42,072 nucleotides of DNA, from the sequence record PQ571306. One strand, 5' to 3'. Positions within the stretch are counted from its first letter, which is position 1. Every line of letters starts with the position of its first letter. This DNA is from Shigella phage phiSD1. This document shows, piece after piece, positions 21,350 to 27,983 of the stretch. The notes under the pieces were generated by a model that saw only the letters and a program-made list of their open reading frames with translations, was not told the DNA's origin and made no database searches. The translations under genes were made by a program, and so were the position numbers.

Positions 21350-21544
21350 GTGAAGGTTGTGTTTAAGAAGGGCCAGTTGGCTAAAACGAAACGCGGCGGA
21401 CAGTACGTAATAGTTACCCAGGACGAGGATGAATTTAGTATCGCTGTAGACGTATGGGGTCTTGTACGAAAGAAACATGGTTACGCTTTCAGCGATAATC
21501 TGAAACTCATCGGCAACAATTTTAAATTCAAATGGGCGAAGTGA
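21350..21544 (+). CDS. Hypothetical protein (64 aa)
   Basis: GTG start with strong RBS. Confidence 0.5.
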   Translation: MKVVFKKGQLAKTKRGGQYVIVTQDEDEFSIAVDVWGLVRKKHGYAFSDNLKLIGNNFKFKWAK

Positions 21545-21798
21545 TGGAAGAATTACCTCAATGCGAACGCCAGTTCATTAGCGGGTTTATTCCCGTAAAT
21601 AATTTCAACATTTCTGATTTGCTGGAACTAAGAGAAAATGGCGCTTTGTGGGTGTGTAACGCCAGAGACGTAACAAAGGCCAGGGCATGGAATTTTAGTA
21701 AAATGCGTCGCCCTAATAAGTCGGGTGATGGGGCTGTTACGATGGATTTGTTGCAGCGCAAAGGTAAGCTGTTTATACACAACGGCATCGAATCATGA
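21532..21798 (+). CDS. Hypothetical protein (88 aa)
   Basis: ORF overlapping upstream stop. Confidence 0.45.
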   Translation: MGEVMEELPQCERQFISGFIPVNNFNISDLLELRENGALWVCNARDVTKARAWNFSKMRRPNKSGDGAVTMDLLQRKGKLFIHNGIES

Positions 21799-21830
21799 TG
21801 CTCGTGCCGACGACTCTGAGGGAGGTTGCC

Positions 21831-21902
21831 GTGAATAATTACCAGTTTATTTTAATTGTCATCGCCGTTTGTGTGGTGCACGCGCTGTGGGGGTTGGTAT
21901 GA
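21831..21902 (+). CDS. Tiny hydrophobic peptide (23 aa)
   Basis: RBS gagggagg then GTG; hand-derived. Confidence 0.2.
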   Translation: MNNYQFILIVIAVCVVHALWGLV

Positions 21903-22042
21903 GAGAAGCATTCGAACGATGGGCCGTCGTAGAGGGTCTGCCGGTTAACAAGGGTTTAAAGAAAGAGTACCTGAACGTTAAGACGCGTCTCGCGTGGCGG
22001 GCGTGGAAAGCTGGTGTGCAAACTGTGATGAATACGAGGTGA
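21899..22042 (+). CDS. Hypothetical protein (47 aa)
   Basis: ATGA-coupled; below track cutoff; hand-derived. Confidence 0.3.
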   Translation: MREAFERWAVVEGLPVNKGLKKEYLNVKTRLAWRAWKAGVQTVMNTR

Positions 22043-22045
22043 TTT

Positions 22046-22234
22046 ATGGGTGAGTGGATTAAGTGTAGTGAGCGGATGCCGGAGCCTTATGAATACGTTC
22101 TTGTAACTGATTGTTTTGTTGGCTGTGAGGTTATGCGTGTTAATTCAGATGGCTACTGGGGGCCTGCAAAGAGTTTATATCACGGTGATATAACGCACTG
22201 GATGCCGTTACCCGAGCCACCATCGCTGGTGTAA
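22046..22234 (+). CDS. DUF551-like small protein (recollection of family)
   Basis: W-x-CSERMPE...THWMPLPEPP pattern recalled from enterobacterial phage small proteins; unverified. Confidence 0.45.
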   Translation: MGEWIKCSERMPEPYEYVLVTDCFVGCEVMRVNSDGYWGPAKSLYHGDITHWMPLPEPPSLV

Positions 22235-22269
22235 CAGGTGGTGTAACAGGTGGTGTAATAGGTCAATAG
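22226..22269. repeat. Tandem 12-mer array (GTGGTGTAACAG x3 plus partial)
   Basis: Three consecutive near-identical 12-mers starting at the stop codon of the 22046 gene. Confidence 0.7.
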
Positions 22270-22292
22270 GTTACTATTTGGCTTTGTGACTT

Positions 22293-22330
22293 ACGCTGCT
22301 ACACAGCAGCGTATCATTTTTCTCATTTTT
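22293..22330 (+). terminator. Rho-independent terminator (acgctgc-loop-gcagcgt plus T-runs)
   Basis: 7-bp GC stem followed by atcatttttctcattttt. Confidence 0.6.
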
Positions 22331-22383
22331 GTTCTATTTCACCAAACGCAACAATCGAAGAGACTATTGCAGGAGATGCAACA

Positions 22384-22557
22384 ATGATTACTAAAGAACA
22401 GGCCGAACGATTAATCGCGTTAATAGACACGATGATTGATGTGAAAACCGATATAGCAACGGCAACAGAGGAATCCGCTACCTGGTTGCTTGAAGAAAGA
22501 GAAGCAGAAGCGGAGCGCGAGTTACTGGCGTTCATCGACTCTATAACACACCAATAA
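22384..22557 (+). CDS. Hypothetical protein (57 aa)
   Basis: RBS aggag then ATG; hand-derived. Confidence 0.35.
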   Translation: MITKEQAERLIALIDTMIDVKTDIATATEESATWLLEEREAEAERELLAFIDSITHQ

Positions 22558-22564
22558 AATTTAC

Positions 22565-25862: not shown

Positions 25863-26050
25863 AAGTTAAAGCAACTAAAGTTACGGTACTATCCGCATTA
25901 GAATATATAACAGAGGGCAAAGTGTACGACGTGCAGGTCTGTTATGGCGGGGTAGGTTGGATAGTTGACGATGTTGGTGATTCTATTTTAATAAATTTTA
26001 GGGGTTACGAGGAATGCGCACACGGCGTTAAGTGGGAGATTGTAGAATGA
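25859..26050 (+). CDS. Hypothetical protein (63 aa)
   Basis: ORF; preceded by second copy of the junction. Confidence 0.45.
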   Translation: MKVKATKVTVLSALEYITEGKVYDVQVCYGGVGWIVDDVGDSILINFRGYEECAHGVKWEIVE

Positions 26051-26205
26051 GTGAACAAGGCCAAGTAAGCCAACCATTACGAGTAGGCCGTAAGGTCAGT
26101 CACACTCCGTTCCCGACACGTGAGGAACTGATGAAACGTAACAGTTTCCTGGGGCCGGACAAGAACAAGTATCTCAATCGCATGTGGGGAGAGCGTAAGG
26201 AATGA
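26047..26205 (+). CDS. Hypothetical protein (52 aa)
   Basis: ATGA-coupled both sides; hand-derived. Confidence 0.3.
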   Translation: MSEQGQVSQPLRVGRKVSHTPFPTREELMKRNSFLGPDKNKYLNRMWGERKE

Positions 26206-26393
26206 GACGTAAACCGTTACCAAAAGTTGGCGATAGCTGGTTAACCCCTGAGTGGAGAAGGTTGAAAATAACAGCAGTTGTCCGTGAAAGACACCCAATG
26301 CCGCAGTTAGATGTTAAAGCTGTTTGGTGTCTGCATTTTAACGATGGTACTTGCGAGTACGTTGATGGGGACGAGTTTTATGACCGACCGTGA
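26202..26393 (+). CDS. Hypothetical protein (63 aa)
   Basis: ORF. Confidence 0.45.
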   Translation: MRRKPLPKVGDSWLTPEWRRLKITAVVRERHPMPQLDVKAVWCLHFNDGTCEYVDGDEFYDRP

Positions 26394-26553
26394 GTATGAA
26401 AAAGCATGCGTAGAATCCGCTACTGGTGAATCTGAAATAGCGTGGATTGACGCCCACATTGAGCACTACTTACGCCAGGTAGACATCCTTATGGAACGCC
26501 GCCGTGAACTGATTAACCGCTTCAACCTGAACAAAGGTGACACTAATGCCTAA
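26380..26553 (+). CDS. Hypothetical protein (57 aa)
   Basis: Start at internal Met overlapping upstream stop. Confidence 0.35.
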   Translation: MTDREYEKACVESATGESEIAWIDAHIEHYLRQVDILMERRRELINRFNLNKGDTNA

Positions 26554-26785
26554 AATCACAATCGCATCACTCGAGAACCGTATCCTGGTGCTTGAGTCAG
26601 AGAAACAGACGTTAGGCGGGCAACTATCAATTAACGGTGAGTTTCAACTGGAGGCGTTTAAGTTGTTGCTTGATAAGTTGAAAGCGGACGAAAAGCCTTG
26701 CGAGCACGATTACTACCTACATGTGGTTGGTGGATTACATCGGGCCACGTGCATCAAATGCGGTAAAGCGTATGGAGTCGCCTAA
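26546..26785 (+). CDS. Hypothetical Cys/His-containing protein
   Basis: C-x-H...H...C-x2-C pattern near C-terminus. Confidence 0.35.
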   Translation: MPKITIASLENRILVLESEKQTLGGQLSINGEFQLEAFKLLLDKLKADEKPCEHDYYLHVVGGLHRATCIKCGKAYGVA

Positions 26786-26954
26786 ACCAGTAGTTATCGA
26801 TGGCGTCCTGTGGAAACCTTACTCGGTTAACCACATCGACGCCGACGGGAAGAAGTTCAGCTTCTACATTTTTGCAATTAGCCGTGAGCACGCCGCCTGT
26901 GTGGTTGACGATATACGAGAAACGGCGTGGCTTGGTGATGAGATAGCGGGGTAG
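26772..26954 (+). CDS. Hypothetical protein (60 aa)
   Basis: ORF, start at internal Met. Confidence 0.35.
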   Translation: MESPKPVVIDGVLWKPYSVNHIDADGKKFSFYIFAISREHAACVVDDIRETAWLGDEIAG

Positions 26955-26956
26955 TT

Positions 26957-27217
26957 ATGGAACAGATTGATCAACTCAAGAAGAACAACAAAGACCTTAA
27001 GAAGGCGCTGGATAAGATTAACGGTAAGTATTCAAAAGCAACTCAGGAACTGATAGCCGCGAAACTTGAGATTGAACACTTAACGCGTGTTCGCGACATT
27101 CTGGAGAACGCCGAAACGTTGCGTAGCCAGCGGGCGCGGACAAATACGACAGTATCAATTCTTATTGGTGTAGCGGTTGGGATGTTAGTTATGTGGGGTG
27201 TTGGATATGGGTCTTGA
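26957..27217 (+). CDS. Coiled-coil protein with C-terminal transmembrane anchor
   Basis: Heptad-like N-terminal region; hydrophobic C-terminal segment. Confidence 0.45.
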   Translation: MEQIDQLKKNNKDLKKALDKINGKYSKATQELIAAKLEIEHLTRVRDILENAETLRSQRARTNTTVSILIGVAVGMLVMWGVGYGS

Positions 27218-27290
27218 AGTGGTTATCAGTCTGGTCGGTCTTAGTTACTTCATTGGGCTGTTGGTTGGATTTCTGTGGGGTAGATACTAA
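27207..27290 (+). CDS. Tiny hydrophobic peptide (27 aa)
   Basis: TAATG-coupled to next gene; hand-derived. Confidence 0.2.
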   Translation: MGLEVVISLVGLSYFIGLLVGFLWGRY

Positions 27291-27571
27291 TGGCGCGTAC
27301 TGTTGCTTCGAGATTCACTGATATTGAATCTGCGATAGAAGAAGCCGTTTATAGTAAATTCTGCAACCAATCTGCAACACATAACTACGGGGTTGTCATT
27401 AAATACGGCAAGTTTGAAATTAGAAGGGTGCGCGCTGGTCGTCCGCACGAGTTTTTATGGACCACAGAAAGCCTCATCCCGCGATGCCACGTTTACACAA
27501 GCGGTGCACATACTATTTTTGTAGACCTGGACAAGAAAGACATTACTGTCACTAAAGGAGAGACAAATTGA
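27290..27571 (+). CDS. Hypothetical protein (93 aa)
   Basis: ORF. Confidence 0.45.
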   Translation: MARTVASRFTDIESAIEEAVYSKFCNQSATHNYGVVIKYGKFEIRRVRAGRPHEFLWTTESLIPRCHVYTSGAHTIFVDLDKKDITVTKGETN

Positions 27572-27804
27572 TTACCAGCATCCCTAAACTGATTGAAGAG
27601 TACGGAAATATGTCGGAGACTTGCCGGCAAACAGGTATCAGCGAAATGACTATTGCCAAGTACCGCAACGATGTTAACTGCGAGCGCCACGTAATTTATA
27701 ACAACCGTCTGATGACGCACGTTAAGACAAGCCCGGTGTTATTCACGCGCCGGGGTATCACTAAAACTGAGCAACGCATCGCACGAGGGGAGAGCAGGGA
27801 ATGA
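27568..27804 (+). CDS. Small putative HTH protein
   Basis: TCRQTGISEMTIAKYR resembles a helix-turn-helix. Confidence 0.35.
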   Translation: MITSIPKLIEEYGNMSETCRQTGISEMTIAKYRNDVNCERHVIYNNRLMTHVKTSPVLFTRRGITKTEQRIARGESRE

Positions 27805-27983
27805 TTGAGGTTTTAGAGTTTCTTATCCATTTCGGGGATAATGTATTCACGATATCCTTTGCATGGATTCTAATATCAAGTTGGTCGGTGATGAAACAAC
27901 TACCTAAGAATCAATTATGGATGACGGTAGGTGGTCTATATGTCGCCGGTATCGCTCAAATCCTGTTGTGGTTTTTCAAATGA
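27801..27983 (+). CDS. Small membrane protein (60 aa)
   Basis: Two hydrophobic segments. Confidence 0.4.
   Translation: MIEVLEFLIHFGDNVFTISFAWILISSWSVMKQLPKNQLWMTVGGLYVAGIAQILLWFFK

What the first reader, a model, noticed from the sequence alone, without database searches (positions are those of the whole stretch)
21350..27983. Dense block of about 30 small rightward ORFs as anti-defence / host-takeover candidates
Three promoter-to-terminator units (21296 to 22330, 22565 to 25224, 25247 to 28108) encode proteins mostly of 20-100 aa, many translationally coupled, including acidic peptides, small membrane peptides, Cys/His-containing proteins and a small HTH protein (27568-27804). This is the typical home of anti-restriction, anti-CRISPR and host-shutoff genes; none can be assigned from sequence alone.
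Basis: inference. Interest (0 to 1): 0.45.

Follow-up and report, generated by a model that had tools for sequence, protein, structure and literature searches.

The report
Kagunavirus small-gene and lysis arm
This is the ordinary small-gene region of a known type of E. coli phage (Kagunavirus): it also holds the phage's cell-lysis genes and some lambda-like DNA-binding genes, and none of its unknown genes resembles any known inhibitor of bacterial immunity.

Summary
About 28 same-strand ORFs cover 91% of 21350-28081. They lie in three sigma-70-like promoter-to-terminator units, and 19 of 26 gene junctions overlap. The window is a Kagunavirus genome, 95.6% identical over 88% of this block to Escherichia phage SZH-1, where these genes are already annotated.

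The distal half of unit 2 is the lysis cassette: an HslV-like peptidase, two holins and an endolysin. Unit 3 is built on a conserved lambda-nin-like core (NinH, DUF2737, NinZ-like). Unit 1 carries DUF551. One conserved gene is AP2-like and probably binds DNA.

Comparison with 58 related loci separates conserved scaffold genes from nine variable slots. The slot genes are the only reasonable anti-defence candidates. No window ORF matches a characterised anti-defence protein in Pfam, PHROGs, NCBIfam or PDB sequences. The model of the one candidate that was modelled (g01) found nothing in the PDB or viral structure libraries either. Published phenotyping finds Kagunaviruses highly sensitive to restriction-modification.

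In two relatives, the promoter-proximal slot that holds g16 here carries a gene annotated "anti-restriction". g16 is unrelated to it.

Verdict: a real but ordinary, already annotated region. Anti-defence function remains untested speculation.

The parts
21296..21324 (+). P1, sigma-70-like promoter (TTGCAC-17-TACTAT)
   Evidence: Read. The strict motif is found only here and at P2 on the + strand. It is conserved 54 nt upstream of g01 homologues in 21 of 34 loci.
21359..21544 (+). g01: hypervariable small SH3-like beta-barrel protein, 61 aa (64 aa from GTG 21350), first gene of unit 1
   Evidence: phrog_12538, E 2.9e-24. AF2 pLDDT 85, five strands. Only generic KOW/PWWP/SH3/YorP and uncharacterised phage hits. 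The ends are conserved at DNA level and the middle is hypervariable in 34 alleles.
21544..21798 (+). g02: 84-aa rare accessory ORF
   Evidence: No Pfam or PHROG match. Found in 1 of 32 loci and in 16 phage records, all Guernseyvirinae and all 'hypothetical'. Third-position fraction 0.64.
21795..21902 (+). g03: 35-aa hydrophobic ORF, doubtful
   Evidence: Third-position fraction 0.26. Variation peaks in the g04 frame, so this is probably a remnant of a gene that is intact in relatives.
21899..22042 (+). g04: 47-aa basic, conserved scaffold gene
   Evidence: phrog_15836, E 2.3e-34. Present in 24 of 32 loci at 91% identity.
22046..22234 (+). g05: DUF551 protein, 62 aa
   Evidence: Pfam PF04448, 58.1 bits against a cut-off of 22.
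22292..22313 (+). T1: intrinsic-terminator-like hairpin with an interrupted T run
   Evidence: dG -15.8, z -3.5.
22384..22557 (+). g06: acidic helical DUF7438 protein, 57 aa, lying between T1 and P2
   Evidence: Pfam PF24219, 38.3 bits against 25. phrog_653. The antisense ORF annotated in SZH-1 shows no coding signal, 0.30.
22565..22593 (+). P2, a second copy of the P1-type promoter
22625..22750 (+). g07: 41-aa very acidic peptide (pI 4.1), accessory
   Evidence: phrog_35344. Present in 7 of 32 loci. Cluster names are all 'hypothetical'.
22743..22961 (+). g08: 72-aa coiled-coil protein, a chimera of two PHROG families
   Evidence: phrog_6094 matches residues 1-50 and phrog_3766 matches residues 47-71.
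22958..23239 (+). g09: 93-aa acidic protein with a variable N-terminal part and a conserved CxxC-x4-H tail
   Evidence: phrog_29624 matches the last 32 aa only. The Lar Pfam hit is below threshold, 14.9 against 28.6 bits. Allele series.
23302..23595 (+). g11: 97-aa very basic, conserved AP2-like putative DNA-binding protein
   Evidence: The family profile hits only AP2/ERF chains in the PDB, best E 1.1e-3. Two distant homologues carry Pfam AP2. Weak AP2 hits. The model shows a beta-hairpin plus helix at pLDDT 85-92. The Kagunavirus form lacks the first strand.
23592..24029 (+). g12: HslV-like Ntn-hydrolase peptidase, 145 aa, accessory
   Evidence: phrog_1040, E 1.7e-34. Thr2, Lys28 and Gly104-Ser105-Gly106 are invariant. 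Weak HslV and proteasome-beta hits. Present in about 17 of 45 loci.
24039..24087 (+). Holin leader hairpin that pairs an anti-SD (24044-24052) with the SD region (24075-24083) ahead of the TTG start
   Evidence: It is invariant in Kagunavirus. Two unrelated Jerseyvirus-type leaders fold the same way.
24089..24397 (+). g13: holin (class II-like), TTG start
   Evidence: phrog_2359, E 1.4e-31.
24390..24662 (+). g14: holin (class I-like)
   Evidence: phrog_2508, E 1.1e-34.
24625..25128 (+). g15: endolysin, phage lysozyme family (start ATG 24625 or GTG 24640)
   Evidence: Pfam PF00959, 89.7 bits. PHROG endolysin families.
25193..25225 (+). T2: strong intrinsic terminator
25247..25275 (+). P3: sigma-70-like promoter TTGACT-17-TATATT
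   Evidence: Conserved in L012.
25310..25507 (+). g16: 65-aa accessory ORF in the hypervariable P3-proximal slot
   Evidence: No Pfam or PHROG match. Found in 28 phage records, all Guernseyvirinae. The slot holds at least 15 gene types or is empty. In L012 and L040 the slot holds phrog_14587 'anti-restriction protein', to which g16 is unrelated.
25507..25656 (+). g17: 49-aa conserved scaffold gene
   Evidence: phrog_2180. Present in 32 of 32 loci.
25653..25862 (+). g18: 69-aa accessory ORF
   Evidence: phrog_20019. Present in 3 of 32 loci.
25859..26050 (+). g19: 63-aa accessory ORF
   Evidence: No family match. Present in 7 of 32 loci at 54% identity.
26047..26205 (+). g20: DUF2737 protein, 52 aa, conserved
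   Evidence: Pfam PF10930, 33.5 bits against 25. Present in 31 of 32 loci.
26202..26393 (+). g21: 63-aa accessory ORF shared with Salmonella Jerseyviruses
   Evidence: Matches 112 phage records, 110 of them Salmonella phages at about 92% aa identity. SZH-1 is the only E. coli phage among them.
26380..26553 (+). g22: NinZ-like 57-aa protein with conserved ends and a variable middle
   Evidence: phrog_1402. Present in 32 of 32 loci. Annotated NinZ-like in EC3-1. A homologue was machine-predicted as an anti-CRISPR in EcoPhCCP1.
26546..26785 (+). g23: 79-aa coiled coil with a C-terminal CEHD...CxKCG zinc-ribbon-like module
   Evidence: phrog_9023. The same module is attached to g22 or g09 homologues in relatives.
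26772..26954 (+). g24: 60-aa conserved ORF
   Evidence: phrog_10509. Present in 23 of 32 loci at 93% identity. The 'host nuclease inhibitor' label in EC3-1 carries no stated evidence. Cluster names are 'hypothetical'.
26957..27217 (+). g25: 86-aa coiled coil with a C-terminal transmembrane segment, accessory
   Evidence: Present in 4 of 32 loci.
27198..27290 (+). g26x: probable unannotated 30-aa membrane peptide
   Evidence: Third-position fraction 0.62 over 12 alleles. TAATG coupling to g27. Present in 11 of 32 loci.
27290..27571 (+). g27: 93-aa accessory ORF
   Evidence: phrog_5407. Present in 3 of 32 loci. Cluster of 113 members, all unnamed or 'hypothetical'.
27568..27804 (+). g28: NinH homologue (Fis-like HTH DNA-binding protein), TTG start
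   Evidence: Pfam PF06322, 31.7 bits against 29.8. phrog_268. Present in 31 of 32 loci.
27801..27983 (+). g29: 60-aa two-helix membrane protein, accessory
   Evidence: phrog_10956. Present in 7 of 32 loci. GRAVY 0.92.
27980..28081 (+). g30: 33-aa ORF
   Evidence: phrog_32259, E 4.9e-17. Annotated in SZH-1.
28086..28111 (+). T3: terminator hairpin ending the block, followed by the promoter-like site for the terminase operon at 28108

Best explanation
The block is the rightward small-gene and lysis arm of a Kagunavirus (Guernseyvirinae) genome. It lies between the leftward replication genes and the terminase genes.

Shown:
- Three operons begin at good sigma-70-type promoters and end at intrinsic terminators.
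- Most genes within each operon overlap at their junctions.
- The distal half of operon 2 is the lysis cassette: two holins and a lysozyme-type endolysin. In this lineage an accessory HslV-like threonine peptidase precedes them.
- The first holin has a TTG start, and its Shine-Dalgarno sequence lies in the 3' arm of a conserved hairpin.
- Operon 3 is built on a conserved lambda-nin-like core (g17, DUF2737, NinZ-like, g23, g24, NinH).
- Operon 1 and the first half of operon 2 contain the conserved genes g04, DUF551, g08 and the AP2-like g11.
- Between these scaffold genes lie nine slots whose content differs between close relatives. In this window they hold g02, g06/g07, g09, g12, g16, g18/g19, g21, g25-g27 and g29.

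Inferred:
- Unmodified host RNA polymerase transcribes all three operons from the start of infection.
- The hairpin and the TTG start keep holin translation low, so that lysis is delayed.
- The scaffold proteins mostly serve the phage's own programme, through DNA binding or bending and regulation (NinH, AP2-like g11).
- The slot genes and the hypervariable g01 are exchangeable cargo. They move by recombination at conserved gene ends and act on host proteins. A minority may inhibit host defences.

No ORF here can currently be assigned to an anti-defence mechanism.
For: Identity of the window. It is 95.6% identical over 88% of the block to phage SZH-1, and 446 Guernseyvirinae records match. The layout matches the annotated relatives.

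Operon anatomy.

Coding and coupling.

Assignments: Pfam, PHROGs, AP2, HslV-like residues.

Scaffold versus slots.

Exchange at conserved ends. In g01 the terminal codons use a single codon across about 30 alleles, while the middle is saturated with change. g08 and g09 match PHROG families over only part of their length. g21 is shared with 110 Salmonella phages.

Holin leader.

Function of homologues. NinH is a Fis-like protein that binds and bends DNA (PMC7166090). DUF551 is a portable domain of unknown function (PMC10834534).

Composition. G+C is lower in the small-gene parts (0.45-0.48) than in the flanks (0.49-0.57).
Against: The timing of transcription is not known. I found no transcriptome for any Guernseyvirinae phage. 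A lysis cassette on an apparently constitutive host promoter is unusual, so regulation I cannot see is likely.

T1 looks weak, and g06 has no promoter of its own.

The roles assigned to the scaffold genes are extrapolated from distant homologues (NinH) or from fold and profile similarity below family thresholds (AP2, HslV).

The fold search with the g11 model was not significant.

The sampling of relatives was anchored on the endolysin, so loci with a different endolysin are missing.
Confidence: 0.75

Rival explanations
1. One reading: the block as a whole is an anti-defence and host-takeover island. Most of its small proteins inhibit restriction, CRISPR or other immunity, or shut off the host.
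For: - Host-type promoters, small proteins, several acidic ones (g06, g07, g09) and strong mosaicism.
- In two relatives one slot carries a gene of a family annotated as anti-restriction. That family sits at the ral position in lambdoid HK446.
- A g22 homologue was machine-predicted as an anti-CRISPR.
Against: - Four of the larger genes are the lysis genes and a peptidase.
- About a dozen ORFs are conserved across the subfamily at about 85-93% identity under purifying selection. Arms-race cargo would not look like this.
- There is no similarity to any characterised anti-defence protein.
- There are no homologues on plasmids.
- BASEL Kagunaviruses are highly sensitive to restriction-modification and variably sensitive to Old.
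- The anti-restriction label rests on annotation only. That family is not similar to lambda Ral, and it is absent from this window.
Confidence: 0.12
2. The unknown small ORFs are mostly neutral or selfish cargo and decaying remnants. They have no measurable role in infection and persist only because they sit between recombination-prone conserved ends.
For: - At least one ORF (g03) looks like a remnant, and another (23194-23301) shows no coding signal.
- Slots are often empty in relatives.
- Homing endonuclease insertions occur in the same region in relatives.
- Several genes are chimeras.
Against: - Most ORFs, including rare ones (g02 0.64, g07 0.68, g25 0.69, g27 0.64), show excess third-position change, which indicates purifying selection on the protein.
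- Reading frames and translational coupling are maintained.
- Families persist over hundreds of genomes.
Confidence: 0.13

Closest known systems
The homologous region of Escherichia phage SZH-1 (ON391668) and other Kagunavirus genomes
   Same: Same gene order, promoters, terminators and lysis cassette. The block is 95.6% identical over 88% of its length. The ORFs are already annotated, almost all as hypothetical proteins.
   Different: About 12% of the block differs, for example g02. I re-call g06 on the + strand where SZH-1 annotates an antisense ORF. I add a probable 30-aa gene at 27198-27290 and doubt two ORFs.
The nin region of lambdoid phages (lambda and P22: ninA-ninI, including NinH)
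   Same: A run of small, translationally coupled, mostly dispensable-looking genes. It contains NinH, NinZ-like and DUF2737 homologues, and DUF551 lies nearby.
   Different: This is a virulent siphovirus. I detected no NinB, NinG or Q in the block. It lies between the lysis cassette and the terminase genes, not between the replication genes and Q.
Phage anti-defence and accessory regions (T7 early region with Ocr and gp0.7; lambda ral region; accessory regions of Silas et al., bioRxiv 10.1101/2023.04.06.535777)
   Same: Host-promoter-proximal position, small and fast-changing genes flanked by conserved genes. One slot in relatives holds an annotated anti-restriction family member.
   Different: No member of this window is homologous to a validated anti-defence protein. 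The phage group is phenotypically sensitive to restriction-modification. The Silas papers do not mention this phage group.
Machine-predicted anti-CRISPR candidates of Kagunavirus EcoPhCCP1 (J Gen Virol 2026, PMC12919940)
   Same: Same genus and same idea. Their CDS 7 is a close homologue of g22.
   Different: Those are low-scoring predictions without experiments. g22 is a universally conserved NinZ-like gene (32 of 32 loci), which argues against a strain-specific counter-defence role.

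Membership tests
Characterised anti-defence proteins (Ocr, ArdA, Lar, Ral, Acr and others) | Detectable sequence or profile similarity to a characterised member | tested here: not met
   Pfam, PHROGs and NCBIfam return no such family for any window ORF. Twenty-four small ORFs give no PDB sequence hit at E up to 10. There are no plasmid homologues. PADLOC, which holds defence rather than anti-defence models, was also scanned and found nothing meaningful. No dedicated anti-defence HMM library was available.
Lar restriction-alleviation family (PF14354) | Score above the Pfam gathering threshold, and a four-ligand zinc ribbon | tested here: not met
   g09 scores 14.9 bits against a threshold of 28.6 and has only Cys-x2-Cys-x4-His in the conserved tail. 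A longer allele in L013 reaches 17.3 bits.
phrog_14587 'anti-restriction protein' (HK446 gp36-like) | Homology of a window ORF to the family | tested here: not met
   The family is present in relatives L012, L040 and L056. No window ORF matches it. g16, which occupies the same slot, is unrelated (E 6.2). The family itself has no experimental basis that I could find, and it is not similar to lambda Ral.
Phage accessory region (operational definition) | Variable gene content between conserved flanking genes in close relatives | tested here: met
   Nine slots vary in length and gene number across 17-49 loci. The P3-proximal slot has at least 15 gene types or is empty.
Holin-endolysin lysis cassette | Adjacent holin(s) and a muralytic enzyme | tested here: met
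   phrog_2359 and phrog_2508 holins lie next to a Pfam Phage_lysozyme endolysin. No spanin was recognised.
NinH (PF06322) | Score above the gathering threshold | tested here: met
   31.7 bits against 29.8, over profile positions 8-56 of 60.
NinH (PF06322) | Dimeric DNA binding and bending like Fis | not testable with these tools
   Known for lambda NinH only (PMC7166090).
HslV / Ntn-hydrolase peptidases | N-terminal catalytic Thr after Met removal, conserved Lys, and a Gly-Ser-Gly motif | tested here: met
   T2, K28 and G104-S105-G106 are invariant in 9 homologues. phrog_1040, E 1.7e-34.
HslV / Ntn-hydrolase peptidases | Significant match to curated HslV or proteasome models | tested here: inconclusive
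   Only weak hits: NCBIfam E 0.004-0.04, far below the cut-offs, and PDB HslV chains at E 0.014-0.03. No Pfam hit.
AP2 DNA-binding domain (PF00847) | Profile similarity to AP2 domains | tested here: inconclusive
   The family profile hits only AP2/ERF chains in the PDB (E 1.1e-3, 0.06, 0.077). Two distant homologues carry precomputed PF00847. Direct Pfam hits are below threshold (15 bits against 33).
AP2 DNA-binding domain (PF00847) | Three-stranded sheet packed on a helix | tested here: not met
   The model of the window protein has two strands and a helix. The first strand present in Jerseyvirus homologues is deleted. The Foldseek search was not significant, although AP2 domains appear in the list.
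Genus Kagunavirus | High nucleotide identity and synteny with type members | tested here: met

The most novel reading that the evidence does not exclude
One or more of the exchangeable genes founds a new family acting on host immunity or physiology. The candidates are the hypervariable promoter-proximal SH3-like g01, the P3-proximal slot gene g16, and the acidic g07 and g09. A related possibility is that the accessory HslV-like peptidase g12 recruits the host HslU ATPase to degrade host proteins before lysis.
Probability: 0.25. Interest if true: 0.55.

Novelty: already known. Interest (0 to 1): 0.2.

Why it matters
Kagunaviruses are common E. coli phages that depend on capsule or O-antigen. 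They are used as therapy candidates and engineering chassis. Knowing which of their roughly 30 small genes are dispensable cargo and which are needed would help genome minimisation and host-range engineering.

This analysis narrows the anti-defence hypothesis from 30 ORFs to about a dozen slot genes plus g01. It also flags two testable regulatory features: the AP2-like protein and the holin leader hairpin. It reveals no new kind of system.

Tried and rejected
- **Concatenated small ORFs against PDB sequences:** no hit at E up to 10.
- **PADLOC and NCBIfam:** only chance-level hits.
- **Rfam and tRNA scans of the whole window:** nothing.
- **Exhaustive representative search with a concatenated query:** I ran no further search on one ORF, because that library carries no names.
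- **Plasmid collection:** only a misfiled Kagunavirus genome and one NinH homologue.
- **Silas et al. accessory-gene papers:** no mention of this phage group or of these domains.
- **Transcriptome literature for Guernseyvirinae:** none found.
- **JSS1_004 anti-Dnd lead:** JSS1 is T7-like and the protein is a gp0.7 kinase, so it is irrelevant here.
- **Lar similarity of g09:** below threshold and due to a generic CxxC knuckle.
- **HK446 gp36 against lambda Ral:** no similarity, so "Ral family" is rejected and only the position is shared.
- **"Host nuclease inhibitor" label on the g24 homologue in EC3-1:** no supporting evidence in the record or in cluster names.
- **Fold search with the g11 model:** not significant.
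- **Fold searches with the g01 model:** only a generic SH3-like fold.

Full report
**What the window is.** The 42-kb window has the layout of a small virulent siphovirus. Replication genes run leftward up to about 20.4 kb. A divergent regulatory gap follows, then the rightward block in question, then terminase and structural genes.

Megablast of 21296-28108 finds 446 phage records, all Guernseyvirinae or close to it. The best is Escherichia phage SZH-1 (genus Kagunavirus), at 95.6% identity over 88% of the query. In SZH-1, vB_Eco_K-01, Bas73, EC3-1 and BUCT825 the same stretch is annotated as 25-35 short rightward genes. Nearly all are "hypothetical protein", with a peptidase, two holins and an endolysin in the middle.

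**Checking the observation.** Reading frames, start codons and Shine-Dalgarno sequences give 27 confident + strand ORFs. One more is probable (27198-27290). Two are doubtful (21795-21902 and 23194-23301).

- The ORFs cover 91% of 21350-28081, and 19 of 26 junctions overlap by 1-38 nt.
- As a test that these are genes rather than chance ORFs, I counted substitutions by codon position among distinct alleles in 58 related loci.
- For most ORFs 60-79% of changes fall on the third position.
- The two doubtful ORFs give 26% and 33%.
- The antisense ORF that SZH-1 annotates opposite g06 gives 30%.

The three promoter-to-terminator units exist as described.

- P1 and P2 share the hexamers TTGCAC-17-TACTAT and further flanking similarity.
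- This strict motif occurs only at those two places on the + strand of the window. It is conserved 54 nt upstream of the first gene in 21 of 34 loci.
- P3 is TTGACT-17-TATATT.
- Each unit ends in a G+C-rich hairpin followed by a T run.

Three corrections apply. g06 lies after terminator 1 and before P2. g01 probably starts at GTG 21359. The block is not made only of small unknown proteins.

**What can be assigned.**

- Pfam gives DUF551 (g05), DUF7438 (g06), phage lysozyme (g15), DUF2737 (g20) and NinH (g28), all above the curated thresholds.
- PHROGs adds an HslV-family peptidase (g12) and two holins (g13, g14). It places most other ORFs in families of unknown function.
- So the distal half of unit 2 is the lysis cassette.
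- Lambda NinH is a Fis-like protein that binds and bends DNA (PMC7166090).
- DUF551 is a portable domain of unknown function found in Ea22 variants and YfdS (PMC10834534).
- EC3-1 annotates the g22 homologue as NinZ-like.
- Unit 3 therefore resembles a lambdoid nin region.

**Scaffold and slots.** I anchored on the endolysin and fetched 53 related loci from IMG/VR. I added annotated GenBank loci and scored presence of each ORF.

- Genes g04, g08, g11, g13-g15, g17, g20, g22, g23, g24 and g28 are present in 23-32 of 32 complete loci. Most are at about 85-93% identity; g08 (70%) and g22 (51%) are more diverged.
- Genes g02, g21, g18, g27, g25, g06, g16, g07, g19 and g29 are present in 1-7.
- Measuring the space between conserved neighbours shows nine slots of variable length and gene number.
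- The HslV-like gene is itself accessory, present in about 17 of 45 loci.
- The rare genes stay within the Guernseyvirinae gene pool. g21 is shared with 110 Salmonella phages but, among E. coli phages, only with SZH-1.
- G+C is lower in the small-gene parts than in the flanks.

**Testing the anti-defence reading.**

- No window ORF matches a characterised anti-defence family in Pfam, PHROGs or NCBIfam. PADLOC, a library of defence rather than anti-defence proteins, also gave nothing meaningful.
- The 24 small ORFs have no PDB sequence relative.
- None has a homologue on 72,556 plasmids, apart from a misfiled phage genome and one NinH.
- The database names of exact or near-exact copies are all "hypothetical" or DUF names.
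- The only hint, a Lar hit for g09, is far below threshold and reflects a CxxC knuckle.
- The BASEL study reports that Kagunavirus isolates are highly sensitive to restriction-modification systems and variably sensitive to Old (PMC11990801). One of them, Bas73, shares g01, g04, g05, g08, g09, g11, g12, g17, g20, g22-g24 and g28. This argues against broad anti-restriction by those genes.
- The idea itself is already in print. A 2026 paper proposes machine-predicted anti-CRISPRs in Kagunavirus EcoPhCCP1, one of which is a g22 homologue. It offers no experiments.

I scanned 47 alternative cassettes from the relatives.

- Pfam finds only DUFs, an ASCH/DUF3850 domain and an HNH endonuclease.
- PHROGs finds one "anti-restriction protein" family, phrog_14587.
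- In L012 and L040 this 77-aa acidic protein is the first gene after P3. That is exactly the slot that holds g16 here.
- Its homologues are annotated the same way in other Salmonella and Klebsiella siphoviruses and in lambdoid HK446.
- In HK446 the homologue lies between N and cIII, the ral position.
- It is not similar to lambda Ral. It has no solved relative. g16 is unrelated to it.
- The label is therefore annotation only, and the argument for g16 rests on position alone.

**Closer looks.**

*g01.* This is the first gene after P1. It has DNA-level conserved ends, with a single codon per residue across about 30 alleles, and a saturated middle with at least eight sequence types. Its AlphaFold model (pLDDT 85) is a five-stranded SH3-like barrel. 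The model matches only generic KOW, PWWP, Tudor, SH3 and YorP folds and uncharacterised phage proteins. The same pattern of conserved ends and a variable middle holds for g09 and g22. I read this as cassette exchange by recombination at conserved gene ends, possibly with diversifying selection.

*g11.* This protein is very basic and conserved. A profile of its family hits only AP2/ERF domains in the PDB. Two distant homologues carry Pfam AP2. The Kagunavirus form lacks the first strand. The model shows a confident beta-hairpin plus helix, but the fold search was not significant. I regard it as an AP2-like DNA-binding protein, possibly a regulator, with moderate confidence.

*g12.* It keeps Thr2, Lys28 and a Gly-Ser-Gly motif and gives weak HslV and proteasome-beta hits.

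*Holin leader.* The leader upstream of holin g13 folds so that GGAGG lies in the 3' arm of a hairpin, and the start codon is TTG. The hairpin is invariant in Kagunavirus. Two unrelated Jerseyvirus-type leaders fold equivalently, one with a T run. CPT annotators marked a terminator at that spot in phage Shelanagig.

**Mechanism and rivals.** The best-supported picture is a host-polymerase-driven arm that combines three things:

- conserved small regulatory or DNA-binding genes;
- a translationally damped lysis cassette;
- exchangeable cargo genes.

The reading that most of the block is anti-defence is weakly supported (0.12). The reading that the unknowns are mostly functionless is contradicted by purifying selection (0.13). 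That at least one cargo gene inhibits some defence system is plausible, about one chance in three on general grounds, but nothing here shows it.

**Novelty.** The region, its gene calls and the anti-defence speculation all exist already for this genus. My additions are small annotation-level refinements: the AP2-like assignment, the holin leader, the slot map, one likely missed gene and one likely mis-stranded gene in SZH-1. The finding is real but ordinary.

Noticed in passing
window 24039-24091: A conserved hairpin places the Shine-Dalgarno GGAGG of the first holin in its 3' arm, and the holin starts with TTG. Two unrelated leader sequences in Jerseyvirus-type relatives fold the same way, one with a terminator-like T run. 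This looks like translational or attenuation control of lysis timing.
   Followed up: yes
window 23302-23595: The conserved, very basic g11 belongs to a family with AP2-domain similarity. The Kagunavirus version has lost the first beta strand that Jerseyvirus homologues keep. It is translationally coupled to the HslV-like gene and lies just upstream of the lysis genes.
   Followed up: yes
window 21359-21544, 22958-23239, 26380-26553 and homologues in L001-L058: Three gene families (g01, g09, g22) have ends conserved at DNA level and hypervariable or length-variable middles. This suggests cassette exchange by recombination inside genes.
   Followed up: partly
window 27198-27290: A 30-aa hydrophobic ORF, unannotated in SZH-1 and K-01, shows a coding-type substitution pattern (0.62 at third positions, 12 alleles). 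It ends in TAATG overlapping the next start.
   Followed up: partly
window 22323-22535 (- strand); L001 2612-2824: SZH-1 annotates a minus-strand ORF here. The Pfam DUF7438 and PHROG matches belong to the + strand ORF g06, and the antisense frame shows no coding signal. The GenBank call is probably on the wrong strand.
   Followed up: yes
window 26697-26779; L013, L024, L039, L043, L050: A short CEH(D)-x8-14-CxxCG zinc-ribbon-like module appears at the C-terminus of different families (g23 here; g22 or g09 homologues in relatives), as if it moves between genes. It accounts for the weak Lar Pfam hits.
   Followed up: partly
window 22228-22263: Three tandem copies of a 12-mer (GGTGTAACAGGT, the third with one change) start just before the stop codon of the DUF551 gene.
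   Followed up: no
window 25128-25310 and the whole block: No Rz/Rz1-type spanin or other outer-membrane disruption gene was recognised next to the endolysin. The Pro-rich ORF at 25125-25205 has no signal peptide.
   Followed up: partly
window about 116-144 (- strand): A third exact copy of the P1/P2 promoter motif (TTGCAC-17-TACTAT) lies on the minus strand near the left end of the window.
   Followed up: no
plasmid record CP088689.1 (44,086 bp): A record filed as a non-mobilizable E. coli plasmid from a blood isolate is, by gene content and 75% protein identity across this block, a Kagunavirus genome.
   Followed up: no
L052 4489-5022; L005 5821-6168: In some relatives an HNH(-AP2) homing endonuclease is inserted inside the lysis cassette, between the holins and the endolysin.
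   Followed up: no
window 20900-21295: The roughly 450-bp gap between the divergent leftward HTH gene and P1 contains a very stable hairpin (21203-21223, dG -21.9, z -5.4) and no convincing ORF. It may be a bidirectional terminator or a regulatory or origin element.
   Followed up: no
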